This document shows, one piece after another, positions 8,073 to 28,306 of a DNA stretch of 32,000 nucleotides. The stretch covers positions 493,103 through 525,102 of the forward strand of contig DXJG01000002.1 in the NCBI GenBank assembly GCA_019056805.1, written 5' to 3'. The position numbers were made by a program, and so were the translations under genes. Source of the stretch: Candidatus Baldrarchaeota archaeon. Its GTDB lineage: Archaea; Asgardarchaeota; Baldrarchaeia; Baldrarchaeales; DXJG01. Below the pieces are notes generated by a model. That model was not told where the DNA came from and made no database searches. It worked only from the letters and a program-made list of their open reading frames with translations. Position 1 is the stretch's first letter, and each line of letters opens with the position of its first letter.

Positions 8073-8167
8073 TCCTATACGATCTTGTTAAATAAGATTG
8101 CAAAAGAAATATTATTTTAAATTTGGTTGGATTGTTTGATTAATGATTAAACTTGTTGGTGAATTTT

Positions 8168-9841
8168 ATGAATCTTAAAATCTTAAGAAGCCGAAACGTG
8201 ACAGAGGGAGTGGATCGCGCCCCTCATAGATCGCTTTTTAAGGCGTTAGGTCTTACAGATGAAGATTTATCTAAACCTCTTATAGCTGTAGCTAATTCGT
8301 GGAATGAAATAGTACCCGGACATGTACATTTAGAAAAAATCGCAGAAGCAGTTAAAAGGGGTATAAGAACTGCCGGCGGAACACCTTTTGAATTTAATAC
8401 AATAGCAATATGTGATGGCATAGCTATGGGACATGAAGGTATGAGAACGCCTCTTCCAAGCAGAGAAATAATAGCTGCATCAATAGAATTAATGATTCAA
8501 GCACACATGTTTGATGCCATGGTACTAATTGCATCCTGCGATAAAATAGTACCTGGAATGCTTATGGCCGCCTGCCGCCTAGATATCCCGTCAATAATGA
8601 TCACTGGTGGGTGTATGTTACCCGGTGTATATAAGGGCAAGGAAATAGCACTAAGCCAAGTTTTTGAAGCAGTGGCAAAAGTTAAATCAGGTGAAATGAG
8701 TGAAGAAGATCTTAAACTTTTGGAAGAATCTGCATGTCCAGGACCTGGATCTTGTGCAGGCATGTACACTGCTAATACAATGGCATGCCTTGTTGAAGCC
8801 CTTGGTATGTCATTACCAGGGTGTGGTGCGTGTCCCGCTGTCTATGCAGAAAAACTCCGTATTGCCGAAGAAAGCGGTAAACAAATTATAAAATTACTAG
8901 AAAGGGAAATTACCCCTTCAAAAATAATCACTGAAGAGTCTATGGAAAATGCGATTCGTGTTGATATGGCTTTAGGTGGATCAACTAATACAATTTTACA
9001 TTTAACCGCAGTTGCACATGAACTTGGAATAAATTTAACACTAGAAAAGTTTGATGAATTGGGACGAAGTACGCCTCACATATGTAATATGAATCCTTCT
9101 GGTCCACATTACCTAAAAGACCTTTACCTTGCGGGCGGGGTTCCTGCTGTTATGAAAGAATTGAAACCACTATTAAATCTTAATACTTTAACAGTAACTG
9201 GGAAAACGTTAAAGGAAAACCTAAAAAGCGTTCATGTCTTAAATAGAGAAGTTATTCGACCATTAAACAACCCATATCATAAAGAAGGCGGAATTGCTAT
9301 TCTATTCGGCTCGCTCGCACCAGAAGGCGCTGTAGTAAAACAATCTGCAATCGACCCAACTATGCAGAAATTCGAAGGAGAAGCTAGAGTTTTTGACAAA
9401 GAAGAGGATGCAGTAAATGCCATACTTAATAATGAGATAGAAAAAGGACAGATTATTGTTATAAGATATGAAGGACCCAAAGGTGGACCAGGAATGCGTG
9501 AAATGCTTTCTGCAACCTCCGCATTAGTTGGTGCTGGCTTAGATAAAAGTGTAGCACTTATTACGGATGGAAGATTTTCTGGAGCAACTAGAGGACCAGC
9601 AATAGGCCACGTTTCACCAGAAGCAATGGATGGAGGTCCAATAGCCATCGTGGAAGATGGAGATATTATCTCGATAAATATACCTGAGAGAAAATTGGAC
9701 TTAAAGATCTCTGAAGACATTGTTAAGGAAAGATCTTCAAAATGGAAACCACCAGAACCAAGAGTGAAAAAAGGGTACCTCTATTTATATTCAAAAATAA
9801 CAGAATCAGCAAGCAAAGGAGCAATTTGGAAAAAACTCTAA
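8168..9841 (+). CDS. ilvD: Dihydroxy-acid dehydratase / IlvD-Edd family dehydratase
   Basis: [60 protein letters not shown] 8168 follows GGTGA. Confidence 0.95.
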
Positions 9842-10037
9842 ACTATACACGAATCGCTTCACGCGAAATAGATAAAACTCTCTAACATTTCATCTCTGCA
9901 TTCAATTATTATCTTCTAATTTATCTGGGAGGCTTTAAATTAAGCGAAACTCTTACCAAAAATTTAATAGGAAAAATATTTTATGGCAAATGAATAAAAC
10001 GTTAAAAATGGCTAAATTACGATAGAGGTGCTTAAAC

Positions 10038-11441
10038 TTGAACATTAGCTGGGGAAATATTGCAAAGAAAATTTCAGAGATTGTAGGGGAAGAAAATATT
10101 ACCACATCACTAGTAGACCTAATAACTTATTCCTCAGATGCATCAATTGATTCAGGAATGCCAAATCTCGTAGTATGGCCAACCACACCAGAACAGATCT
10201 CAAAAATAGTGAAACTAGCTAATGAGTATCATTTTCCCATAATTCCTCGAGGGGCAGGCACAGGTTTAAGTGGTGGAGCAGTTCCCAAATATGGTGGAGT
10301 TATTTTAGATTTATCACGTATGAATAAAATACTCGAAATAAGTACACAAGATCTTCAAGTCCTTGTAGAAGCTGGAGTTGTAGCAGATGACTTAAATCAA
10401 GAACTTGCAAAACATGGATTATTTTTCCCACCAGATCCTGCAAGTAGTAGTGCAGCCACAATAGGCGGTATGTTGGCAGAAAATGCAGGAGGAATTCGAG
10501 CAGTCAAATATGGTACTACAAGAGAGTGGGTACTTGGTTTAGAGGTCGTTTTACCGACAGGCGAAGTGCTATGGGTTGGGCGGAGGGCAATGAAGTGGGT
10601 TGCCGGATACGATCTTGTAAGATTATTTATTGGAAGTGAAGGAACACTAGGAATCATTACAAAAGCTTTGCTAAAGGTTAGACCACTCCCAGAAACCGCA
10701 TTGTCAGCTTTTGCAATGTTTAGCAGCCTAGAACAAGCAGTTCATTGCGTATACAAAATTATTATAGAGGGACTAGAACCCTCAAAGGTTGAATTTCTTG
10801 ACCAAATAACACTAGATGCTATTAGCAAATATACTGGAACAAGTTTTCCTCCTGGAGAGGCTGCCATTATAATAGAACTTGATGGTGAAAAATTAAGCGT
10901 CGAAAAAAGGCTCGAAAGACTAATTGAAATATTTAAAGAAGAAAAAGCATTAAGCTATGATGTTGCTAGGACACCCGAAGAAAATATGAGAATATGGCAG
11001 GCTAGAAAGGCAGCTCTTCCGGCATTATCATCAGTAAAACCAACCGTAGTTATAGAAGACGTTACCGTACCCATTAGTAAACTCCCATATATGGTAAAAG
11101 TTGTTCAAGAAATTTCCAAGAAATTTAATATTCCCGTAGCTACCTTTGGCCACGTAGGTGATGGCAATTTTCACCCATGTATTCTGTTAGATATTAGAAA
11201 TCGCGATGAAGTTGAAAGAATGGAAAAATGTGCATTAGAAATTGCTAAGGCTGCAATAAAAGTTGGAGGTACAGTGAGCGGTGAACATGGAATTGGAACA
11301 TTAAAAATGAACATGTACAGACATGAAGCACCAACAGAACTAGTAAAATTGCTGTTAAAAATAAAGAGAGCGCTGGATCCCAATAACATTATGAACCCCG
11401 GAAAAATCTTCCCCAAAGAATATTTGGAGGGAAATGCATGA
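10038..11441 (+). CDS. FAD-linked 2-hydroxyacid oxidoreductase subunit (GlcD/D-lactate dehydrogenase-like)
   Basis: PRGAGTGLSGGA, FFPPDPAS, ATIGG, GSEGTLGII, EDVTVP, FGHVGDGNFH, SGEHGIG, LDPNNIMNPGK. Confidence 0.92.
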   Translation: MNISWGNIAKKISEIVGEENITTSLVDLITYSSDASIDSGMPNLVVWPTTPEQISKIVKLANEYHFPIIPRGAGTGLSGGAVPKYGGVILDLSRMNKILEISTQDLQVLVEAGVVADDLNQELAKHGLFFPPDPASSSAATIGGMLAENAGGIRAVKYGTTREWVLGLEVVLPTGEVLWVGRRAMKWVAGYDLVRLFIGSEGTLGIITKALLKVRPLPETALSAFAMFSSLEQAVHCVYKIIIEGLEPSKVEFLDQITLDAISKYTGTSFPPGEAAIIIELDGEKLSVEKRLERLIEIFKEEKALSYDVARTPEENMRIWQARKAALPALSSVKPTVVIEDVTVPISKLPYMVKVVQEISKKFNIPVATFGHVGDGNFHPCILLDIRNRDEVERMEKCALEIAKAAIKVGGTVSGEHGIGTLKMNMYRHEAPTELVKLLLKIKRALDPNNIMNPGKIFPKEYLEGNA

Positions 11442-12562
11442 AATTGCTTCCAGATGACTTTGAAACACAGTTGATTAAATGTTCTGAATGTGGATTTTGC
11501 AGGCCAGCTTGTCCAACTCTCGCAGTCAAGATGACTGAGTCTTGGGGTGCTCGAGGAAGGAACATGATTATAAAAGCTGTAATTGATGGGCGTCTCAAAG
11601 TTGATGAAGAAGTTTTGAAAAGACTTTACAGTTGCGCACTCTGTAAAGCGTGCGAAGTTGTATGTCCATCTAAAGTTAAAGTTGTGGACATAATGGAGAT
11701 AGTGAGAAGCAAACTTACAGAATTAGAACTAGCCCCCTTAAAAGAACATAAAGAAATGATAGATACCATGTTTACCACTGGAAATATTTTTGGAGAATCG
11801 TTAGAATTTGAAAAAACCATTATATCATCTCCAGTTGAAACTTTGCTATTTCCTGGCTGCATGGCTGTAGTAAAAAATCCTGAAATAAAAGATGCTTGCA
11901 TTAAGCTTCTCGAAAAGGCGGGAATAAACTTCACAGTTTTCGAGGATAAAAATCTATGTTGCAGCGGTTATGCGAAAATGCTTGGTGTCGAAAAGAAATT
12001 TGAGGAATATGTAGCTAAACAAGCAGAAAAAATATTTTCTCTCGGCATCAAGCAGATTGTTACCCCATGTCCCCTATGTTATACAACCCTTAAAGAAGAT
12101 TATCCTTTTGACGGCAAAATCAAGGTTATACATTTATCGGAACTATTAAGCGACCTACTAAAAAGTGCAAAAATAAATTTTACAAGAAAAGTCGACTCTG
12201 TTGTTGTTTTCAAAGATCCATGCCATCTAGGAAGATGGGAACAGATTTACGATCCGCCAAGATATGTTCTTTCTCAAATTCCCGGAATAAAAATAATTGA
12301 ATTTACAAAAAACCGCGAAAATGCTCAATGCTGCGGTGGAACAATAAGAATACCCTTTATGGACATGCGAACAGAAATGAGCAACAAATTAATAGAAGAC
12401 GCTGAAAATCTAGGGGCTGATCTAATAGTTACATCATGTCCATCATGCTTCTTCAACATAAGTTCATCAGCATACTTCTCAGATGTAAAAGTTGTCGATC
12501 TCAGCATTTTAGCAGCATATGCCGCAGAACTGATAGACGAACTGATAATTGGAGGAGAATAG
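11438..12562 (+). CDS. Fe-S/CCG-domain subunit (GlcF/HdrD-like)
   Basis: Two ferredoxin motifs (CSECGFCRPACP, CALCKACEVVCP) and two CCG-type domains (FPGC, CCSG, TPCPLC, DPCHLGR, CCGG, TSCPSC). ATGA overlap with the FAD subunit. Confidence 0.9.
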   Translation: MKLLPDDFETQLIKCSECGFCRPACPTLAVKMTESWGARGRNMIIKAVIDGRLKVDEEVLKRLYSCALCKACEVVCPSKVKVVDIMEIVRSKLTELELAPLKEHKEMIDTMFTTGNIFGESLEFEKTIISSPVETLLFPGCMAVVKNPEIKDACIKLLEKAGINFTVFEDKNLCCSGYAKMLGVEKKFEEYVAKQAEKIFSLGIKQIVTPCPLCYTTLKEDYPFDGKIKVIHLSELLSDLLKSAKINFTRKVDSVVVFKDPCHLGRWEQIYDPPRYVLSQIPGIKIIEFTKNRENAQCCGGTIRIPFMDMRTEMSNKLIEDAENLGADLIVTSCPSCFFNISSSAYFSDVKVVDLSILAAYAAELIDELIIGGE

Positions 12563-16608: not shown

Positions 16609-17199
16609 TTATCTTGTCTTTTTTATCTTCTGCAATCTCAACAATAGCTCTCTGGCTTGGGAGTTTTTTTCGAAGTATTCTCTTACAGGTTTCAAAAATT
16701 CTATTAGTGCCTCTGCCGCGGCATTTTTTAGATCCAATGGGTGAAGTTCACCCTTTAAATATATTTGTTCTAATTCGGGATAACTTTCAACAATTAAATC
16801 TCCACCATACTTTTCGGGTCTATGTATCTCTAATGTAAAATCATCTCGTGCAAATAATAAGTACTTATTTATTTCCATAATCGGATTAAATTCTATATCT
16901 TTTGGTGGACAATAAGCTTGTTTAATCTTTTTCCTTATATCTTCCGGTGTATCATGAACAAATATACATGTTTCAGGCAGACTTTTACTCATTTTCGTAT
17001 CTAAAAGAATTTCTTCTCTTGATTTTCCCGTAACATCCATCCTTCCTACCCCAGCCAAACCTGAGAGAAGAGGTGTATGAACAGCTACCGGCTTTCTTCT
17101 ACCAAGTTTCGGTGCAATATCCCTACATAACATGTGGACACTTCTTTGATCCATTCCACCATAAGCTACATCCACATCAAGAAGAAAAACATCTGCTGC
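16609..17199 (-). pseudogene. tyrS: 5'-truncated tyrosyl-tRNA synthetase (C-terminal ~196 codons intact; HIGH-motif half missing)
   Basis: AADVFLLDVDVAYGGMDQRSVHM...KMSKS...AYCP...LHPLDLK. An in-frame TAA (17200-17202) sits where the Gln of YPxMQAAD is expected, and I found no TyrRS similarity further upstream on the minus strand. Confidence 0.85.
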
Positions 17200-17214
17200 T
17201 TAGCGCGCGCTAAG
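17199..17214. repeat. Perfect 16-bp palindrome CTTAGCGCGCGCTAAG at the tyrS breakpoint
   Basis: Read directly and self-complementary. AACATC copies lie at 17188-17193 and 17215-17220. Confidence 0.9.
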
Positions 17215-17489
17215 AACATCAAAAATCTTACAGTTAAGTCCATTTATCCGCAATATTTTAAAATTCAGGTATTTTTCATATCTTGGGTGGAAGTGATGGT
17301 GCTTCAATGTCAAGAAGATTGCTTCAGAGAAAATATTCAGGACTTACGTAGATTCCTCTTCAGGGCTCTATATAGAAATTAAATTCTAATGTTATCGCGT
17401 GGATCTTAAAAATTCTTCTTCCTGATATTTCTATTGACCTTTTTGAGCGGAAGATTCCGAATATCACCTTCTGCTCTTAAAATTTAATG

Positions 17490-17510
17490 CAAGGGTTCTA
17501 GAGAACCTTG
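17490..17510. repeat. Near-perfect inverted repeat CAAGGGTTCTAGAGAACCTTG
   Basis: Arms CAAG(G)GTTC / GAACCTTG around TAGA, with one bulged base. Confidence 0.6.
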
Positions 17511-17669
17511 ATCTAACAGAAAGAAAACAAAAACTACGTTTCCCATAAGCTAGCCAGATAGTTCCTAGACTTCTATTATGCGAAAATGCTTTAAGTTAAA
17601 TTTTTCAAAGTTGTTAAATTAACATGATATTCAGAAAAATAAAAGTTCAATAGAAGGAGGAATATAGAC

Positions 17670-18743
17670 ATGGATGTAGAAGAAAGATTAAATTTGATTA
17701 AACGACCACCAACAGAAGAAATAATAACAGAAGAGGAGTTAAGAGAGCTTCTAGAAACCACTACCCATCCTAAGCATTACATAGGATTTGAAATTTCCGG
17801 TTTATTACACTTAGGAACTTTAATAATATGTGGTTATAAGATAAATGACTTAGCAGAAGCTGGTGTTGACGTTACAGTTTATCTTGCAGATTGGCATAGT
17901 TTTATCAATAAAAAGCTAGGTGGAAACTGGGAAAACATTCTAAAGGCTGCAAAGTATTATGAGAAAGCTTTTAAATTCTTTTGTCCCAAAGCAAAAATTG
18001 TTCTTGGATCAGAATTATATCATCATAACGATGAGTATTGGAAAGATGTTATAAGATTCTCTTCGCATATAACGTTGGCCAGGAATGTACGTTGCCTAAC
18101 AATAATGGGAAGAAGTGAAAAGGAAAAATTAAATTTTGCGCAATATATTTACCCGCCCATGCAAGCTGTGGATATAAAATATCTGGGTGAAGATATACCA
18201 CATGGTGGGATGGATCAAAGAAAGGTTCATGTTTTAGCAAGAGAAGTATTTCCAAAACTTGGTTGGAAAAAACCCGTAGCACTTCATCATCATTTGTTAA
18301 TGGGTTTGGCAGGACCACCGAGAATAAAAACTAAGGATAAATTAGAGAAAGTAATTGCAATGAAAATGAGTAAAAGCAAACCATGGACATGTATATTTAT
18401 TCATGACTCTGAAGAACAAATAAAGAAAAAACTATTAAAAGCATGGTGTCCCGAGAGGCAGGTTGAATTCAACCCTGTATTAGAATTGGTTAAATACATA
18501 ATTTTTCACGAAAAAAAGGAGTTCTTAGTTGAGAGGGAAAGTAAACATGGCGGAGATATAGTTTTTTCTTCTTATGAAGAGTTGGAAAAAGAATACATTA
18601 AAGGGAATCTCCATCCTTTAGATTTGAAACTATCTGTCGCGCGAGAAATCTCAAATATACTAGATCCCATCAGGAAGTATTTTGAAAGACCATCAAATAG
18701 GAAATTGTTAAACGTTTTTAAAGAAGTTAAAATTATAAGATAG
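17670..18743 (+). CDS. tyrS: Tyrosyl-tRNA synthetase, archaeal type, full length
   Basis: YIGFEISGLLHLGT (HIGH), LADWH, YPPMQAVD, GGMDQRK, KMSKS, LHPLDLK. GGAGG RBS. Confidence 0.96.
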   Translation: MDVEERLNLIKRPPTEEIITEEELRELLETTTHPKHYIGFEISGLLHLGTLIICGYKINDLAEAGVDVTVYLADWHSFINKKLGGNWENILKAAKYYEKAFKFFCPKAKIVLGSELYHHNDEYWKDVIRFSSHITLARNVRCLTIMGRSEKEKLNFAQYIYPPMQAVDIKYLGEDIPHGGMDQRKVHVLAREVFPKLGWKKPVALHHHLLMGLAGPPRIKTKDKLEKVIAMKMSKSKPWTCIFIHDSEEQIKKKLLKAWCPERQVEFNPVLELVKYIIFHEKKEFLVERESKHGGDIVFSSYEELEKEYIKGNLHPLDLKLSVAREISNILDPIRKYFERPSNRKLLNVFKEVKIIR

Positions 18744-20091
18744 AAACTATATTTTTGATGGTTTTTCCAAAGTCTGTTAATTCCCAACATTCTTGATTAT
18801 TTTTTCCGCTAACTCGTCTAACAATACCGCTTTTTTCCATCGATTTTAGAAGTCGCATAATAAAATAGCCGTTTCTTCTTATGGAATTTTGAAGCTCGAG
18901 CGTTGTAAACTTAGAATTCATAATGTTAAGGTAGCTTAGTACTCTATATTTTCGATGAGATTTTAAAGCATATGCGAGTATATTGAATTGTTTGGAATCC
19001 TTAGGAAAGATTTGCATAATTTCAATTAAGCTGCGCCAGTTCAAGTACGAGGTCAAGATGAAAAGGTTTCTTGCTTTAGATTTTTTAATTTTACCTTTAA
19101 TGTTCACATGACTCAGTATTTTTTCATAATCTTTTATGTACTGTTCATTGCTTTCAAAAATTTGTAATCTCACATTTAAAGAATTGTTTTTGTCTCTATA
19201 ACAATATACATTACCATCTCCAAGTAACAGTCCTTGTAAAAAGAATTTTAGTATGTCCTTATCAGGATTAGATTTTGTTAAATATCTTCTAATTTCATTC
19301 ATTGCATTATAGCAAAATTCCGCCAGTAAGGAATTTGTTACCCAAAGTTTAATTGTAAATTCTTTTACTCTTTCTATTTTTCTTGTGAAAATATTTTTGT
19401 TTGGAATTCCAAGTTTGATCAAAAATGACTTTACTTTTTTGACTTGATTAAACTTTGGATTTATTGAGATAGTCGCATTGAATAACGATATATCAATAAA
19501 AGTTTTAGATAGTTGAAGAAAGTCAGAAATGATTGTCAACGACTTATTAGTAAAGCTAAATTCCCTTCCCCTGCGCCGCTTTAGAATGGTTTTTCCCCCT
19601 TCCGCTTGTAGATAACCCAACAATTTTGCAAAACTCTTCGAAACGTATCTGTTAAACACTATTTCTTTAGGTCTACCTTTAGCTGGATACCACAAAAATA
19701 TATTATTTTTATAACACCTACAACATATAGGAAAACCTGACATAGTTTTTTGGATTAAAAAGTAAAGTAGATCTATAGAATTCCCATTTAACATTTTAGT
19801 TGGTTTCTGTGCAGCTTCCACTTTTTTAATATGCATAGTGATGATTTGACCTTTTTTTAGTTGGAGAGCTTCTCTACACTTTTTGGGAATAATGATTCTC
19901 CTTCCCTTGGTGAAATAAGTAACAAAAAATTTAGTTCCAATATTCGTAGTTATTCCTATCTCCAAAAATCCATTGTTTATCTTATTTTGTATTTGAGCTG
20001 GTACCCAAATACGATTACCTTTGTATACTAGTTTCAATTTCATACATATTTGTGGTTTTGAATTAATAAAAAGTCCACCATTTTGTATCAA
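18733..20091 (-). CDS. Free-standing double-LAGLIDADG endonuclease-like protein with N-terminal AbrB/SpoVT-like and C-terminal winged-helix-like regions
   Basis: LAGLIDADG-like helices AKLLGYLQAEGG and FFLQGLLLGDGN with acidic residues retained. KGRRIIIPKKCREALQLKKGQII is AbrB-like. FTTLELQ...LLKSMEKSGIV...WELTDFGK is wHTH-like. Start uncertain (TTG 20091 or ATG 20043). Confidence 0.75.
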   Translation of the reverse strand: MIQNGGLFINSKPQICMKLKLVYKGNRIWVPAQIQNKINNGFLEIGITTNIGTKFFVTYFTKGRRIIIPKKCREALQLKKGQIITMHIKKVEAAQKPTKMLNGNSIDLLYFLIQKTMSGFPICCRCYKNNIFLWYPAKGRPKEIVFNRYVSKSFAKLLGYLQAEGGKTILKRRRGREFSFTNKSLTIISDFLQLSKTFIDISLFNATISINPKFNQVKKVKSFLIKLGIPNKNIFTRKIERVKEFTIKLWVTNSLLAEFCYNAMNEIRRYLTKSNPDKDILKFFLQGLLLGDGNVYCYRDKNNSLNVRLQIFESNEQYIKDYEKILSHVNIKGKIKKSKARNLFILTSYLNWRSLIEIMQIFPKDSKQFNILAYALKSHRKYRVLSYLNIMNSKFTTLELQNSIRRNGYFIMRLLKSMEKSGIVRRVSGKNNQECWELTDFGKTIKNIVSIL

Positions 20092-20253
20092 TACTCGAAA
20101 TTTTTTAATTTATCAAAATCAAAGCTTGAACCTTATATTTATTTATAATCCCCCAGGAAGAGATAAAATTTTCAATACTTTTCGCTTTTCAGCAAGGAAA
20201 GTTTCGCTCTCCAAAAATATAAAAGAGAATATCTGTCTAATTTTTCTTACCTA

Positions 20254-20778
20254 TTATTTCTTCAATCTTTTCAATAATTGATGAATAAGATCTATTGCTG
20301 ATTCCAATAAGGAAAGTTCATACTCTATTTGTTTTTTCAATTGTTCCTTATATTCTTTACGAGTAATCGGATCTGATATTTGATTTATTTTCTCGAACCT
20401 ATTGACTAGCTTCCTAATCGATGGATATTTACTCAATATTTCCACATTTCTTTCCGTGTAGGGAGTTGATAATTGATGCACGTGTACACCCTTAGGTGAG
20501 ACTTCCAATAGAAGTGTTAGATTACGAGATATTTGAAAATATCTTCTAGGCGGCCCCCCTTCCACTGGCTTTATAAAAGAGTCAATTAGTCCACATCGAA
20601 GAAGTTTATCTATATATTTTTTAAGGACCCACCTATGCATATCCAGCTCTTCTATTAGTTGAGACCAATATTTTGGTTCATTAAGAGCTTGAAGTATTTT
20701 TAGACAGTTTCTACCCGAAAGAGCCTTTAACAGCTCTATTATGTCCTCTAATTCTTTTTCGGACTCTCTATTGGTCAT
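20254..20778 (-). CDS. ArsR-family wHTH regulator, Phr/HSR1-like heat-shock repressor candidate
   Basis: LLKALSG..CLKILQAL...LIEEL...KYIDKLLRCGLIDS...GGPPRRYFQI with a C-terminal coiled region. Divergent from Hsp20. Confidence 0.8.
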   Translation of the reverse strand: MTNRESEKELEDIIELLKALSGRNCLKILQALNEPKYWSQLIEELDMHRWVLKKYIDKLLRCGLIDSFIKPVEGGPPRRYFQISRNLTLLLEVSPKGVHVHQLSTPYTERNVEILSKYPSIRKLVNRFEKINQISDPITRKEYKEQLKKQIEYELSLLESAIDLIHQLLKRLKK

Positions 20779-20816
20779 TGCAGGGACCCTCTATGTTAGA
20801 TAATAGAATCGTTACC

Positions 20817-20882
20817 TTTATATATGTATCACCTATTAGTGACCATAGTCACCTAATAGTGACATTTCCTATTAGGAGGTGA
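20817..20882 (+). promoter_or_regulatory. Hsp20 promoter: TATA box, tandem operator and RBS
   Basis: TTTATATA at 20817-20824. TCACCTA(T/A)TAGTGAC at 20829-20843 and 20849-20863 (20-bp period, each TCAC-N6-GTGA). GGAGGTGA at 20875-20882. Confidence 0.75.
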
Positions 20883-20888
20883 ATTCAA

Positions 20889-21368
20889 GTGGCAGACTGG
20901 GAAGATCCCCTAGAAAAAGAAATAAGAAAAATACTTGAAAAAATGATAAAAAACTTCACGATAATTTCAGAAATCGATCCAGGAGAGGCCCAATTTTTCG
21001 GTTATGAACGAATAGAAATTACACTACCCAACGGTAAAAAGATAATTAAAGAACGAAGAACGCCCTCAATCAACAACCATCCAATACTGAATGTAATTAA
21101 AGAAAGCCAACCGGAACAAGATGTCTCAAGCTTTCTAAGCGATGTAATCCGAACACCAAACGAAGTTATAGTCATCGCCGAAGTACCTACACTTGACGAA
21201 AGAGACGTAAATTTTGAAATCAAAGATGGAGCCGTTAGAATTTTCTGCAATGGTGAAATGATCCACGAAATTAAGATAGAAAACGATGTTGATCCTACCT
21301 CCATCAAAAAAGAATTCAAAAACAGAATCTTAGAGCTCAAAATACCCTTAAAAAAGAAATCCAAATAA
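20889..21368 (+). CDS. Small heat-shock protein (Hsp20/alpha-crystallin)
   Basis: DVIRTPNEVIVIAEVP...DVDPTSIKKEFKNRILELKIP resembles the alpha-crystallin domain of archaeal Hsp20. Confidence 0.82.
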   Translation: MADWEDPLEKEIRKILEKMIKNFTIISEIDPGEAQFFGYERIEITLPNGKKIIKERRTPSINNHPILNVIKESQPEQDVSSFLSDVIRTPNEVIVIAEVPTLDERDVNFEIKDGAVRIFCNGEMIHEIKIENDVDPTSIKKEFKNRILELKIPLKKKSK

Positions 21369-25546: not shown

Positions 25547-26041
25547 ATGAGTGTAAAAAGATTTTTTGCAAAGCATGGTTTTATCACAAACGGTATGCGT
25601 GTTAATCTCATAGGAGAAAAATTTTATACATTAATGGTAGGTATAGCCGACCTACTTAAAGAGAACTTTGGAGAGAAGGGTGAGCAACTACTTATCGATC
25701 TTCTAAGAAAATTTGGAGAAGAAGATGGAAAAAGATTAAAAGAAGAGCTAAAGCTCGGCAACGATATAAACGATGCCGCTGATGCATGGATTATTATGGG
25801 TAACATTTTCAAAGTCAAAATGTTTACCCGCAAAACTAGCGATAAGGAAATAGAGTTTTACCATCCAAATTGCCCTATGTGGAACTTTTTTAAATCCAAA
25901 GGAAAAATATACTGCGAAACTCTATGCTTACCCTATGTTGAGTCAGTTGTTAAAGCCATTGCCCCAAATATCGATATGGAGATTGTTCATCCACCTACAA
26001 TTGAACGTACCTGCGTCAAAAAACTAGTCGTCAAAAGTTAG
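25547..26041 (+). CDS. V4R/ATC-hydrolase-like small-ligand-binding protein
   Basis: FGEEDG...AADAW...NCPMW...CETLC...TC Cys pattern typical of L-2-amino-thiazoline-4-carboxylate hydrolase-like/V4R folds. GAGGT RBS. Confidence 0.6.
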   Translation: MSVKRFFAKHGFITNGMRVNLIGEKFYTLMVGIADLLKENFGEKGEQLLIDLLRKFGEEDGKRLKEELKLGNDINDAADAWIIMGNIFKVKMFTRKTSDKEIEFYHPNCPMWNFFKSKGKIYCETLCLPYVESVVKAIAPNIDMEIVHPPTIERTCVKKLVVKS

Positions 26042-26575
26042 CTTCGGATATCTACCAAACTTTTTTCTAAATTCCTCCACATAGTATTGCAAGGTACGAG
26101 CTGAAAAACGACTTCTATCTATTTTCAATTTTTGTATAATATCCTCTATATCTTCTTTATTTCCCTCTACCTCAATAAAGGACCCTATCTCTGGAAAAAT
26201 ATCCAACATTATTTTTACTTTTTTATCTTTAAACTCGTATATTTCCCTGATTCTATCCACTCTGAACACTTGTTTAAAACCAAGATGTTCAAAAATCTTA
26301 ATCGCGTTAAAACCATCACTAACATGAACTTCAACTTCTTCTCTAACCTTGTATTTTTTATCGGCTATTCTAGGACCTTTAAAAGTTATCATACCCTCGC
26401 CATTCTCAAAAACCCGTATTCTAAAAACGTAATCTTTCCTTTGAAACTCTCTATTTCCATAGTCAAAACTAAAATCCCTAATCAAATTTTTAAAAACCAA
26501 TTTCCCACCAATAGTCCTTATCTTTTTCCGCACTTCTTCTACATCGTCAACTTTCGCTTTAACTTCAATTTCCAT
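26024..26575 (-). CDS. cyaB: CYTH-domain protein (class IV adenylate cyclase / triphosphate tunnel enzyme)
   Basis: EIEVK (ExExK), FRIR, ITFKGP, REEVE, RIREIY, LDIFPEIGSFIEVE. ATG 26575. Confidence 0.88.
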   Translation of the reverse strand: MEIEVKAKVDDVEEVRKKIRTIGGKLVFKNLIRDFSFDYGNREFQRKDYVFRIRVFENGEGMITFKGPRIADKKYKVREEVEVHVSDGFNAIKIFEHLGFKQVFRVDRIREIYEFKDKKVKIMLDIFPEIGSFIEVEGNKEDIEDIIQKLKIDRSRFSARTLQYYVEEFRKKFGRYPKLTFDD

Positions 26576-26658
26576 ATTATTGTAAAAACCATCACCAAAC
26601 ATTTTAACTTTCTCTTATCAACTACTCACATTACTATCCAAAATACGACTTCGCAAGC

Positions 26659-27237
26659 TTACACTGACTGATATTTCCTGATTGCGTATATTAATAATTG
26701 TGCTAATTCCTGAAATGCTGGCTGTACATTTTCACCGGTTTTGGCGGAAGTCTCTATAAAAACTATCGGAACGTCAAATTTTTCCTCTAAATATCTTTTT
26801 AGTATTTGTCCTTCCTCGTTGCTGACCCAGTCACGGCTTGGATCTGGTGGTGTATCTATCTTAGGTCTAAGATCTATTTTATTTCCAACTAAAACTACTG
26901 GTACTTTTCCAGTATTTTTCACTAACTCTTCCATCCAAAAGACTGTATTCTTAAAGGTACTTCTTCTCATTACATCATAAACAAGTAATGCTCCACTTGT
27001 GCCTCTATAAAAGGATTCTCTTACTGCTTTGAAGTGTGGTTGTCCAGCTAAGTCCCATATTTGAAACTTAACCTGAACCTCATCAGATAACTTGATATCC
27101 ATCACTGCAAAGTCAGCACCAATAGTCATTATATATGCACTGTCGAAACCTTCGCCCATAAATTTTCGTCTAAGTGCCGTTTTTCCGACACCACCATCGC
27201 CAATTAAGACAACTTTGAAAAGATAACTGTTTTTCAT
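26659..27237 (-). CDS. Rab-like small GTPase, paralogue 1
   Basis: G1 GDGGVGKT, G2 TIGADF, G3 WDLAGQ, G4 NKID, G5 ETSAK. No C-terminal Cys. Confidence 0.95.
   Translation of the reverse strand: MKNSYLFKVVLIGDGGVGKTALRRKFMGEGFDSAYIMTIGADFAVMDIKLSDEVQVKFQIWDLAGQPHFKAVRESFYRGTSGALLVYDVMRRSTFKNTVFWMEELVKNTGKVPVVLVGNKIDLRPKIDTPPDPSRDWVSNEEGQILKRYLEEKFDVPIVFIETSAKTGENVQPAFQELAQLLIYAIRKYQSV
27017..27076. repeat. 60-bp exact repeat, copy 1 (inside GTPase paralogue 1)
   Basis: TCTCTTACTGCTTTGAAGTGTGGTTGTCCAGCTAAGTCCCATATTTGAAACTTAACCTGA, identical to 27751-27810. Confidence 0.95.
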
Positions 27238-27422
27238 GACCTATACCTCGCACCCCGTCCTCCAGTAAGGTTGGGGTTAATAAAGTTATTACGATAAAGA
27301 TTATAAATTTTTTGATAACGTAAAGCCTCATTTAAACGTAAAATTTGAGGAAATCTAAAAAATAGAACCGTTATTTTGCGAGAGGTTCAATGTTTAAATA
27401 AAGACAAAATAAATTAAATAAA

Positions 27423-27965
27423 TCATTCTTTAGACATATTTAAAATCAAATCAGCAAGTGTTATGAACGCAGTATTCACATTTTCCCCAGTTTTTGCAGA
27501 AGTTTCTATAAAATGCACCTTAACTCCAAACTTTTCCTCTATAATCTGTTTTTTCTTAAGGCCTTCCTCAGTAGTAATATGGTTTCCACCTGGAACACGC
27601 AAATCTATCTTATTACCAACCAAAACTATAGGCACTTTCGTTCCTGCATTCTCAAGAAGTTCAGTTACCCAAAGCTCAACATGATCATAAGTTTCCCTTC
27701 TAGTCACATCATATACCAGAAGAGCACCTCGCGATCCTCTGTAGAATCCCTCTCTTACTGCTTTGAAGTGTGGTTGTCCAGCTAAGTCCCATATTTGAAA
27801 CTTAACCTGAGTCCCGTCAGATGTCTCAACATTTTTTACAGCAAAGTCAGCACCAATAGTAACTAAATATGATGCTGTAAAACCTTCGCCCATAAAACGT
27901 CGTCTCAAGGTTGTTTTTCCGACACCGCCATCGCCAATTAACACAATCTTAAAGAGATAGACCAT
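27423..27965 (-). CDS. Rab-like small GTPase, paralogue 2
   Basis: Same five G boxes and no C-terminal Cys. ATG 27965 after GAGG preferred over TTG 27980. Confidence 0.95.
   Translation of the reverse strand: MVYLFKIVLIGDGGVGKTTLRRRFMGEGFTASYLVTIGADFAVKNVETSDGTQVKFQIWDLAGQPHFKAVREGFYRGSRGALLVYDVTRRETYDHVELWVTELLENAGTKVPIVLVGNKIDLRVPGGNHITTEEGLKKKQIIEEKFGVKVHFIETSAKTGENVNTAFITLADLILNMSKE
27751..27810. repeat. 60-bp exact repeat, copy 2 (inside GTPase paralogue 2)
   Basis: Identical to 27017-27076, compared base by base. Confidence 0.95.
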
Positions 27966-28306
27966 CGCACTCAACCTCAAATGTAGGATTTAATATTGAG
28001 TTATTGAATCTAGTGTTTCTTAACTCTTACGGTTAAGATTACGTAGGAAAATATAATATTAAATTTTAGGTTCACTTGCCATAGATTGAAGAGCTTAACT
28101 TTACGCAATGTTGAAAGATGATCCGTGTACAAACTAATAATATGTAGTGTTCTTCTGGTTAAATAAACTTTAAAGCATAAAATTAACATGTGAGAAGAGA
28201 AGTACAACAAAGTTAAATGTAATCTTATCTACTGCTTTAGATAATTTAAATCAAAATTATAAATGAATTTAATACTTTAAGCTTTAAATAAAGAGGGAGA
28301 AGAATC

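What the first reader, a model, noticed from the sequence alone, without database searches (positions are those of the whole stretch)
16609..18743. Tyrosyl-tRNA synthetase replacement apparently caught in progress
Seen: a C-terminal TyrRS half with no internal stop or frameshift lies back-to-back with an intact TyrRS. The two differ widely (VDVAYGGMDQRSVHML vs EDIPHGGMDQRKVHVL), so this is not a recent duplication. From memory, the intact copy's N-terminus (RPPTEEII, HYIGFEISGLLHLGT) resembles thaumarchaeal-like TyrRS. Inference: xenologous displacement at the same locus, with recent loss of the resident 5' half. Alternative: the fragment is translated from GTG 17175 as a stand-alone KMSKS/anticodon-binding subunit.
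Basis: partly seen in the sequence, partly recalled or inferred. Interest (0 to 1): 0.72.

Follow-up and report, generated by a model that had tools for sequence, protein, structure and literature searches.

The report
Endonuclease cassette replacing native tyrS
An archaeon's own tyrosyl-tRNA synthetase gene was cut down to its back half by a 3-kb imported cassette carrying a foreign, intact copy of the gene plus a homing-endonuclease gene, which suggests that a selfish nuclease can drive the replacement of an essential translation gene.

Summary
16609-17199(-) is the last 196 codons of a TyrRS. 17670-18743(+) is a complete 357-aa TyrRS, 48% identical to it.

The fragment is the resident gene: 85% identical to the full-length TyrRS at the same locus in a same-genus genome. 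The intact copy is foreign (Bathyarchaeia/Nitrososphaeria-type; at most 51% to 40 relatives; AU test p 3e-10).

Window 17200-20233 is a 3.0-kb insertion. It holds the xenolog and, overlapping its 3' end, an intact I-DmoI-like double-LAGLIDADG gene (18733-20043, -).

Sister strains carry the same cassette but keep native codons 44-364, so this genome suffered a further 612-bp deletion.

The ancestral junction lies within 1-2 nt of the site where tyrS carries a tRNA-type mini-intron in other archaea. All ten close relatives of the nuclease sit beside a tyrS, either intron-bearing or xenolog-type, twice with leftovers of a displaced tyrS.

The two cassette copies diverged less (dS 0.45) than the left flank (dS 1.1-1.6).

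Best reading: nuclease-driven homing into tyrS with a linked immune allele. Displacement is near-certain; nuclease causation is inferred, about 0.6. Other notes in this scan had already flagged the tyrS intron on other DNA and the cut-and-rescue idea here.

The parts
16609..17199 (-). Remnant of the resident (vertically inherited) tyrS: codons 169-364 plus the stop. KMSKS is present; the HIGH half and the promoter are gone.
   Evidence: 85% aa identity to full-length G001 TyrRS and 67% to same-order G004. Nucleotide synteny with G001 ends exactly at 17199. Clade support 100/96.
17200..17227 (.). 28-nt junction filler. It contains the perfect palindrome TTAGCGCGCGCTAA (17200-17213), which supplies the TAA that ends the homology. 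It stands in place of 612 nt present in sister strains.
   Evidence: Window 17200-17227 corresponds to L034 6953-7564, which is native codons 44-168 plus 236 nt of cassette end. The 14-mer is unique in the genome.
17228..17669 (+). Non-coding left arm of the cassette, upstream of the xenolog (presumed promoter; GGAGG lies 8 nt before the ATG).
   Evidence: Colinear with L034 7565-8000 at 75-89% nt identity. No counterpart in G001 or in the loci holding the closest xenolog relatives. No TyrRS or nuclease remnant detected.
17670..18743 (+). Intact xenologous tyrS, 357 aa (motifs HLGT and KMSKS). It is the only complete TyrRS found in the assembly.
   Evidence: PF00579 over the full profile. 96% identical to the sister-strain cassette copy and 83% to three MAGs labelled Nitrososphaerota/Brockarchaeota; 61-70% to many Bathyarchaeia; at most 51% to 40 relatives of the host. 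G000 vs L034 dN/dS 0.04.
18733..20043 (-). Free-standing homing-endonuclease-like gene, 436 aa: an AbrB-like N-terminal domain, a monomeric double-LAGLIDADG core and a winged-helix-like tail. It is convergent with the xenolog, with an 11-nt overlap.
   Evidence: PF14528. The acidic residues ending both LAGLIDADG helices (E148, D276) are invariant in 11 homologues. AF2 model pLDDT 88.8 and pTM 0.85. Foldseek top hits are I-DmoI, I-AniI, E-DreI and mMsoI at probability 1.0, with TM by target 0.6-0.65 for I-DmoI. dN/dS 0.20 against L031.
20044..20233 (.). Right end of the cassette. Homology to the cassette-free relative G001 resumes at 20234. The sister strain has 282 nt more here, including a decayed TyrRS-like piece.
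20254..21368 (.). Flank probably imported together with the cassette: a wHTH gene (20254-20778, -) and a 159-aa gene (20889-21368, +).
   Evidence: G000 vs L034: dS 0.6-0.8 and 80-82% aa identity. Both are only 58-70% identical to G001, whereas genes further right are 85-91% identical between G000 and G001.

Best explanation
A mobile two-gene cassette invaded the resident tyrS of this archaeon's lineage. The cassette carries a LAGLIDADG homing-endonuclease gene plus a linked tyrS allele from the Bathyarchaeia/Nitrososphaeria-type clade that the nuclease presumably cannot cut.

Shown:
- The cassette replaces the native promoter and the 5' part of the gene.
- In sister strains the native gene is cut between codons 43 and 44, directly before the HIGH motif. 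In this genome a second deletion of 612 bp, sealed by a 28-nt palindromic filler, removed codons 44-168 and the cassette's end. This left the 196-codon remnant at 16609-17199.
- The foreign tyrS is the only complete TyrRS gene found in the assembly.

Inferred:
- The nuclease recognises the conserved coding sequence at ..EPSG|xxHxG.. of tyrS and cleaves alleles that lack the cassette.
- Repair from a cassette-bearing donor copies in nuclease, immune tyrS and adjacent flank. This is intronless homing with co-conversion.
- The cell survives because the cassette brings its own TyrRS, a natural analogue of a cleave-and-rescue element.
- In other archaea the same nuclease subfamily is instead partnered with a tRNA-type (BHB) mini-intron at that same site, which would give immunity by splitting the target ('collaborative homing').
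For: 1. Resident versus foreign. The fragment is 85% and 67% identical to the same-genus and same-order TyrRS. The intact copy is at most 51% identical to 40 relatives. Tree placement is, and monophyly is rejected at p 2.8e-10.

2. An insertion, not a duplication. Window 17200-20233 (3034 nt) stands where G001 has 573 nt, namely the intergenic spacer plus codons 1-168.

3. An earlier stage is preserved. Four metagenome contigs (L034-L037) carry the same flanks and cassette (xenolog 96% identical) but keep native codons 44-364.

4. Site coincidence. The L034 junction lies at GGT|CTT. BHB-type inserts of 21-31 nt sit one nucleotide downstream of the homologous position in L025, L026, L123, G039 and G030, and all six genomes of family f18 carry the insert. 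Cutting after the second bulge nucleotide, the rule given in PMC2738675, restores ..EPSGxxH.G.. in frame in all five sequences analysed. The central helix covaries with the Ser codon (GUGG/CCAC, GCGG/CGC, CUGG/CCAG). By my own estimate, the chance that a random breakpoint falls within 1 nt is about 3/1092.

5. Linkage. Every locus fetched, covering eight of the ten close nuclease homologues, has the nuclease directly beside a tyrS. In some it is convergent with an uninterrupted 'EISG' xenolog-type gene; in others it is divergent from an intron-bearing 'EPSG' gene. P0124 and P0125 were not looked up.

6. A second, independent displacement. The L028/L125 group has a 44-45-codon C-terminal leftover of an EPSG-type tyrS next to the nuclease plus an EISG-type tyrS.

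7. The nuclease looks active. Catalytic acidic residues are invariant, the fold is I-DmoI-like, and dN/dS is 0.20.

8. Horizontal spread. dS is 0.45 for the cassette tyrS and 0.47 for the nuclease, against 1.1-1.6 in left-flank genes. In the left flank the sister strain is closer to cassette-free G001 than to G000. The right flank is co-diverged with the cassette.

9. Rarity. The nuclease was found in 1 of 400 genomes of the phylum.
Against: - No cleavage assay exists, so the target site is inferred from junction positions only.
- The intact gene and the remnant are head-to-head. The primary integration from a distant donor therefore cannot have been simple homologous replacement of tyrS by tyrS, and its mechanism is unknown.
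- None of the 80 representative-genome loci holding xenolog-type tyrS carries the nuclease within 5 kb. Most spread of this tyrS type needs no nuclease.
- The nuclease is frameshifted in L034-L037 and hit by an IS element in L031.
- dS values above 1 are saturated, and the flank genes are short (about 100-300 synonymous sites).
- The AbrB and wHTH domains would also fit a DNA-binding regulator.
- Earlier notes in this scan report the same intron in some Bathyarchaeia tyrS. The xenolog type is therefore not intrinsically exempt from invasion at this site.
Confidence: 0.6

Rival explanations
1. Ordinary horizontal acquisition of a foreign tyrS, followed by neutral decay of the now redundant resident gene. 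The LAGLIDADG gene is a passenger, or a domesticated DNA-binding regulator, with no causal role.
For: - Xenologous replacement of aaRS genes is common (PMC5388404, listed).
- 80 of 80 representative loci with this tyrS type lack the nuclease.
- The nuclease is already broken in sister strains.
- The protein has AbrB-like and wHTH-like DNA-binding domains.
Against: - It does not explain why the breakpoint coincides within 1-2 nt with the tyrS intron insertion site.
- It does not explain why every locus fetched for the close nuclease subfamily has it next to a tyrS in unrelated genomic contexts.
- It does not explain why displaced tyrS leftovers recur.
- It does not explain why both catalytic acidic residues are invariant and the gene is under purifying selection.
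Confidence: 0.3
2. The 196-codon fragment is still a working gene. It would be translated from GTG 17175 as a stand-alone KMSKS/anticodon-binding protein, for example a trans-acting domain or regulator.
For: - The frame is open with an intact KMSKS motif.
- Pairwise dN/dS is 0.06.
- The G000 branch shows 33 synonymous to 7 non-synonymous unique codon changes, much like the intact G001 gene at 20 to 4.
Against: - Most of that divergence predates the insertion. The cassette copies differ by dS 0.45 but the remnants by dS 1.6, so low dN/dS says nothing about present function.
- Sister strains keep a different extent (codons 44-364), so no defined truncated product is conserved.
- The promoter and 5' end are replaced.
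- The homology is cut by a stop codon created by the filler DNA.
Confidence: 0.05
3. An assembly or binning chimera joins a Bathyarchaeia-like contig piece to this genome.
For: The genome is a metagenome-assembled draft with 3.6% estimated contamination.
Against: - One 21-kb contig spans the whole stretch in X1, and an independent sample's contig bridges 17200 without differences.
- Four further assemblies (L034-L037) show the same gene order.
- The cassette's G+C matches its surroundings.
Confidence: 0.02

Closest known systems
Intronless homing and marker exclusion by free-standing homing endonucleases of T4-like phages (SegF, SegG, MobE; review PMC2988022; definition in PMC6083498)
   Same: The nuclease gene lies between or next to conserved genes. 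It is presumed to cut the neighbouring conserved gene in genomes that lack it. Repair copies the nuclease gene plus the donor's flanking allele, which differs at the target.
   Different: Here the host is a cellular archaeon and the enzyme is a LAGLIDADG type, not GIY-YIG or HNH. The target is an aminoacyl-tRNA synthetase. The linked 'immune allele' is a whole xenologous gene from another lineage, about 48% identical, rather than a polymorphic homologue. The resident gene is left as a truncated remnant.
Collaborative homing: F-CphI next to the intron-containing psbA of cyanophage S-PM2 (Zeng, Bonocora and Shub 2009, as described in PMC6083498)
   Same: In L025, L026 and L123 a free-standing nuclease gene lies beside a gene whose presumed target site is split by an intron without an ORF.
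   Different: The intron is an archaeal BHB mini-intron of 21-31 nt, presumably removed by the tRNA-splicing endonuclease, not a group I ribozyme. In the window itself there is no intron, and a xenolog takes the immune role.
Synthetic Cleave and Rescue (ClvR) elements (PMC6442612)
   Same: The architecture matches: a sequence-specific nuclease against an essential gene, tightly linked to an uncleavable version of that gene.
   Different: This one is natural. It uses a protein-guided nuclease, sits in a haploid prokaryote and is inserted in the target locus itself. Killing of non-carriers has not been shown.
I-DmoI and related archaeal intron-encoded monomeric LAGLIDADG endonucleases
   Same: It has the best structural matches and the two-motif monomeric core with acidic residues.
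   Different: It is free-standing rather than intron-encoded, has extra AbrB-like N-terminal and winged-helix C-terminal domains, and its putative target is a protein gene rather than rRNA.
Xenologous displacement ('homeoalleles') of aminoacyl-tRNA synthetases (general survey PMC5388404)
   Same: A divergent aaRS of foreign origin replaces the resident one.
   Different: The event is caught mid-way, with the remnant in place. Stages are preserved in sister strains, and a candidate molecular driver is physically linked.

Membership tests
Class Ic tyrosyl-tRNA synthetase (PF00579) | Full Rossmann-fold catalytic domain with a HIGH-type and a KMSKS motif | tested here: met
   Xenolog 17670-18743: PF00579 profile positions 4-291 of 292 (E 4.8e-40); motifs HLGT and KMSKS are seen in the translation. 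The fragment covers only profile positions 152-292; it keeps KMSKS but has no HIGH half.
LAGLIDADG homing endonuclease (monomeric, two-motif) | Two LAGLIDADG helices, each ending in a catalytic acidic residue | tested here: met
   The motifs LGYLQAEGG (E148) and GLLLGDG (D276) are invariant in 11 homologues. PF14528 hit at E 1e-5.
LAGLIDADG homing endonuclease (monomeric, two-motif) | Alpha-beta-beta-alpha-beta-beta-alpha fold duplicated in one chain | tested here: met
   AF2 model pLDDT 88.8. Foldseek hits I-DmoI, I-AniI, E-DreI and mMsoI at probability 1.0, with TM by target 0.6-0.65 for I-DmoI.
LAGLIDADG homing endonuclease (monomeric, two-motif) | Site-specific double-strand cleavage of an allele lacking the element | not testable with these tools
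   Inferred only, from the coincidence of the junction with the intron site.
Homing element (mobile by presence/absence at one locus) | Occupied and empty alleles of the same locus in close relatives, with the element's history discordant with the host's | tested here: met
   G001 has the empty site; G000 and L034-L037 are occupied. Cassette dS is 0.45-0.47 against 1.1-1.6 for the left flank. The dS values above 1 are saturated.
Collaborative or intronless homing | The carrier's own copy of the target is protected (split by an intron, or divergent at the site) | tested here: inconclusive
   The intron splits the site in L025, L026 and L123. In the window the xenolog reads GAAATTTCCGGTTTATTACAC where the native gene has GAACCAAGTGGTCTTGTTCAT. 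Resistance itself is untested.
Archaeal BHB (tRNA-type) intron in an mRNA (related loci, not the window) | A 4-bp central helix flanked by two bulges; cleavage after the second bulge nucleotide restores the frame | tested here: met
   Five sequences of 21, 29, 30, 31 and 31 nt all restore EPSGxxH.G in frame. The central helix shows compensatory changes. Both exons stay open although the genes are only 58% identical in amino acids (rule from PMC2738675). The 3' bulge is 2-3 nt and the outer helix is weak in some. Splicing has not been shown experimentally.
Xenologous gene displacement | Phylogenetic discordance of the surviving copy, with the resident copy lost or decaying at the same locus | tested here: met
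   Trees; AU p 2.8e-10 (the group was named after seeing the first tree); synteny.

The most novel reading that the evidence does not exclude
A family of free-standing archaeal LAGLIDADG endonucleases is specialised on the HIGH-motif coding site of tyrS. It spreads across phyla by carrying its own immunity in one of two forms: a tRNA-type mini-intron that splits the site, or a whole cleavage-resistant tyrS xenolog. The second form is a natural cleave-and-rescue element that forces replacement of an essential aminoacyl-tRNA synthetase. It would give a mechanistic cause both for part of the notorious horizontal transfer of aaRS genes and for the origin of protein-gene BHB introns.
Probability: 0.5. 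Interest if true: 0.88.

Novelty: new variant of a known kind. Interest (0 to 1): 0.78.

Why it matters
Aminoacyl-tRNA synthetases are textbook examples of essential genes that are nonetheless exchanged between distant lineages, and the driver is usually left as 'selection or chance'. This locus preserves several stages of such a replacement:

- an empty site (G001);
- the cassette with the native gene cut at codon 44;
- the cassette with the native gene cut back to codon 169;
- a nuclease later broken by a frameshift or an IS element.

It also physically links the incoming gene to a homing-type nuclease whose relatives are all tyrS-associated. If the nuclease cuts the resident gene, this is a natural counterpart of engineered cleave-and-rescue drives. 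It would also be the first such system proposed for cellular archaea, here probably an Asgard-like host.

The locus further ties the recently noticed tyrS mini-introns to a candidate mobility enzyme. The origin of archaeal protein-gene introns then becomes testable with one protein and three short DNA substrates.

Tried and rejected
- **Missing N-terminal half.** tblastn of the xenolog N-half against the spacer, and of the whole protein against all 18 contigs, found nothing.
- **TyrRS or nuclease relics in the 442-nt left arm.** None found.
- **Nuclease in relatives.** Absent from 399 other genomes of the phylum searched. Absent from the 5-kb flanks of 80 representative-genome loci with xenolog-type tyrS.
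- **Other TyrRS copies in the L025 and L026 genomes.** The records are not held (error), so it is unknown whether those genomes have a second tyrS.
- **Expression.** No RNA holder is listed among the public runs, so nothing can be said about transcription of the fragment, xenolog or nuclease.
- **Naming the organism.** Cluster look-ups returned no names. 'Asgard-like' rests on two Ras-family GTPases in the window, closed 1.4-Mb relatives in the phylum, and earlier notes.
- **Alternative readings of the 21-31-nt inserts.** I rejected translational bypass (no matching take-off and landing codons), a split gene (the HIGH motif would fall in neither ORF) and a pseudogene scar (both exons stay open at 58% aa identity with saturated pS).
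- **My first BHB drawing** had the bulges on the wrong side of the central helix. I corrected it against the pre-tRNA layout and PMC2738675.
- **In-frame stops in G028 and G058 tyrS.** They are not at the intron site.
- **Global alignment of the far right flank with L034.** It failed because synteny ends after the 159-aa gene.
- **A first dN/dS for the nuclease** was wrong because an upstream in-frame stop shifted the alignment. It was redone from the ATG.
Full report
**Observation.**
The window holds two TyrRS reading frames, head-to-head and 470 nt apart. One is a 188-aa ORF at 16609..17175 on the minus strand. The other is a 357-aa ORF at 17670..18743 on the plus strand. Both match Pfam PF00579: the short one only over profile positions 152-292, the long one over the whole profile. 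They are 48% identical (E 4e-60).

Homology of the short frame continues eight codons upstream of its GTG, to 17199, and is then cut by TAA at 17200-17202. No N-terminal half was found in the spacer or elsewhere in the 1.92-Mb assembly, which is 91% complete.

The junction is real. A 21-kb contig of the probable source run spans the stretch. A contig from a second sample bridges 16895-17971 without a difference. Two further studies hold identical pieces, though none of their listed pieces bridges 17200 itself.

**Which copy is resident.**
Against 40 relatives, the fragment is 85% identical to a full-length 363-aa TyrRS of a same-genus genome (G001) and 67% to a same-order genome. The intact copy reaches at most 51% against any of them, G001 included.

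In a 102-row tree and a careful 43-row tree, the fragment, G001 and a sister-strain remnant form a clade (100/96) with the same-order sequence, inside a group of same-phylum sequences. The intact copy sits in a large clade of Bathyarchaeia and Nitrososphaerota sequences. It is nearest (83%) to three MAGs labelled Thaumarchaeota, Nitrososphaera and Brockarchaeota. A tree forcing the two copies together is worse by 243 log-likelihood units (p-AU 2.8e-10). I named that group after seeing the first tree.

**Anatomy of the insertion.**
The G001 contig is colinear with the window. Nucleotide homology runs up to window 17199 on one side and resumes at 20234 on the other. The 3034 nt between them replace 573 nt of G001, namely the spacer after a wHTH gene plus the first 168 codons of tyrS.

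The inserted block has four parts:
- a 442-nt non-coding arm;
- the xenolog;
- a 436-aa gene (18733-20043, minus strand), convergent with the xenolog and overlapping its end by 11 nt;
- about 190 nt more.

**The neighbouring gene is a homing-endonuclease-type gene.**
It has a PF14528 hit. It carries two LAGLIDADG helices whose terminal acidic residues (E148, D276) are invariant in all 11 homologues. A confident model (pLDDT 88.8, pTM 0.85) finds as best structural matches the monomeric archaeal intron enzyme I-DmoI and other LAGLIDADG nucleases (probability 1.0; TM by target 0.6-0.65 for I-DmoI). An AbrB-like domain precedes the core and a winged-helix-like domain follows it.

The family is tiny: 12 proteins in 5.8 billion clusters. 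It is absent from the 399 other genomes of the phylum searched.

**An earlier stage survives in sister strains.**
Four metagenome contigs (L034-L037) show the same neighbourhood and cassette, with the xenolog 96% identical. There the native gene still spans codons 44-364.

Compared with them, the window has 28 nt (17200-17227) in place of 612 nt. The missing 612 nt are native codons 44-168 plus 236 nt of cassette end. The 28 nt include the perfect palindrome TTAGCGCGCGCTAA.

Truncation therefore happened in two steps. First, the insertion removed the promoter and 43 codons. Second, a later deletion occurred in this lineage.

The nuclease gene is intact here. It is frameshifted in L034-L037, and in L031 it is interrupted near its 3' end by an IS607-like element. 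This matches the usual decay phase of homing genes.

**The breakpoint is a special site.**
In L034 the native sequence starts at CTT ATT CAT ATT GG, i.e. directly after the Gly codon of ..EPSG and two codons before the HIGH-type histidine.

In several loci tyrS is interrupted one nucleotide downstream of the homologous position by a short insert:

| Locus | Insert length |
|---|---|
| L026 | 21 nt |
| L025 | 29 nt |
| G039 (family f18) | 30 nt |
| L123 | 31 nt |
| G030 (family f18) | 31 nt |

L025, L026 and L123 are the Aenigmarchaeota-like loci that carry close homologues of the nuclease. Family f18 belongs to the host's own phylum, and all six of its genomes carry the insert.

Each of the five inserts analysed folds as helix, 3-nt bulge, 4-bp helix, bulge. 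Cutting after the second bulge nucleotide is the rule documented for the cbf5 mRNA intron (PMC2738675). In all five sequences it restores ..EPSG-x-x-H-x-G.. in frame.

The central helix changes in step with the Ser codon (GUGG/CCAC, GCGG/CGC, CUGG/CCAG). L025 and L026 tyrS are only 58% identical with saturated synonymous sites, yet both exons are open. These are functional genes with an intron, not scars.

Other notes in this scan had flagged the same tyrS intron independently in Bathyarchaeia, Asgard and Aenigmarchaeota genomes.

A random breakpoint would fall within 1 nt of this site with probability of about 3/1092. This figure is my own estimate.

**Linkage.**
Every locus fetched for the close nuclease subfamily has the nuclease directly next to a tyrS; these loci cover eight of the ten members (P0124 and P0125 were not looked up). 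Two layouts occur.
- Divergent from an intron-bearing EPSG-type tyrS: L025, L026/L027, L123/L124.
- Convergent with an uninterrupted EISG-type tyrS, overlapping or separated by a few nt: the window, L034-L037, L031, L028-L030, L125/L126, L032/L033.

The L028/L125 group also keeps a 44-45-codon C-terminal leftover of an EPSG-type TyrRS on the other side of the nuclease gene. This is a second, independent displacement. L026 keeps a 27-codon N-terminal leftover. L034 has a decayed KMSKS-region relic beyond the nuclease gene (E 4e-5; weak evidence).

Two distant homologues (26% identity) sit instead at the end of the ribosomal P1-L10-L1 operon.

**History.**

| Comparison | dS | dN/dS or aa identity |
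|---|---|---|
| Xenolog, G000 vs L034 | 0.45 | dN/dS 0.04 |
| Nuclease, G000 vs L031 | 0.47 | dN/dS 0.20 (core 0.15) |
| Five left-flank genes and the native remnant, G000 vs L034 | 1.1-1.6 | – |
| Two right-flank genes, G000 vs L034 | 0.6-0.8 | 80-82% aa |

In the left flank the sister strain is closer to cassette-free G001 than to G000. The two right-flank genes are only 58-70% identical to G001, whereas genes further right are 85-91% identical between G000 and G001.

The cassette, with about 1.1 kb of right flank, therefore has a younger common ancestor than the surrounding genomes. This is what homing with one-sided co-conversion predicts. dS values above 1 are saturated and the genes are short, so I take only the direction of the contrast as shown.

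The remnants show dN/dS of 0.06 and no excess of replacements on the truncated branches (33:7, 22:4 and 20:4 synonymous to non-synonymous). This fits recent truncation and gives no evidence for or against residual function.

**Interpretation.**
Displacement of the resident tyrS by a xenolog at the same locus is, in my view, established. That the linked LAGLIDADG enzyme drives it is inference. The proposed steps are that it cuts tyrS at the EPSG|xxHxG site while the carrier is protected by an intron or by a divergent allele. I put this at about 0.6.

The closest precedents are:
- intronless homing and marker exclusion in T4-type phages (PMC2988022);
- collaborative homing of F-CphI with the psbA intron (as described in PMC6083498);
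- in architecture, synthetic Cleave-and-Rescue elements (PMC6442612).

The searches I ran found no report of a tyrS intron or of a nuclease-linked aaRS cassette in archaea. This is a limited library, not proof of absence.

Open points:
- how the first integration from a distant donor occurred, given the head-to-head orientation;
- whether the nuclease is active;
- whether the palindromic filler reflects hairpin-mediated repair.

Noticed in passing
L100:3831-6125 (Aenigmatarchaeota MAG DRTY-1_201808_bins_47): Two full-length TyrRS genes lie head-to-head 72 nt apart and belong to different clades of the tree. This may be another displacement caught earlier, with no nuclease gene nearby.
   Followed up: partly
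window 17200-17213; genome C9:136039, C11:15336, C18:35730, C18:38888: The palindromic core AGCGCGCGCT occurs 5 times in a 35% G+C genome, against roughly 0.4 expected by my own estimate, mostly as TAGCGCGCGCTA. One copy seals the deletion junction. Its meaning is unknown.
   Followed up: partly
L119:4001-5338, L121:4001-5143: Distant homologues of the nuclease (26% identity; P0131 is seen on many contigs) sit convergent to the ribosomal P1 (Ribosomal_60s)-L10-L1 operon in two different contexts. This may be a sister lineage with another conserved target, or a domesticated form.
   Followed up: no
L031:1978-3888: An IS607-like element (serine-recombinase/MerR-type gene plus a TnpB/Cas12f-like gene) is inserted in the 3' end of the nuclease gene of an L034-like cassette. 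The two cassettes are 97.6% identical in nucleotides.
   Followed up: partly
window 8153-12562: About 4.4 kb is present in this genome but absent between the DUF4147 and DUF7847 genes of G001 and L034. It encodes an IlvD/Edd-type dehydratase, an FAD-linked oxidase and a CCG/4Fe-4S protein.
   Followed up: no
L034:10437-10598 (+); window about 20100-20180: A decayed TyrRS-like piece of the KMSKS region (..LFIHD..EEIK..NPV.., two stops, E 4e-5) lies beyond the nuclease gene's start, in the same orientation as the xenolog. It may be a relic of a previous host's tyrS carried along by the cassette.
   Followed up: partly
L025:1-2382: An 1811-aa topoisomerase-type gene (Toprim, Topoisom_bac) carries two intein/LAGLIDADG insertions 3.6 kb from the tyrS-nuclease pair in the Aenigmarchaeota MAG GCA_016214795.1.
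   Followed up: no
L130 (G058:C55:4400-5650): The tyrS of this same-phylum genome has TGA at the conserved Trp of ..LADWHSW... This could be a sequencing error, a recent mutation or recoding.
   Followed up: no
window 26024-27980: Two Ras-family small GTPases (E 1e-44 and 7e-48) lie next to a CYTH-domain gene. This fits an Asgard-type host.
   Followed up: partly
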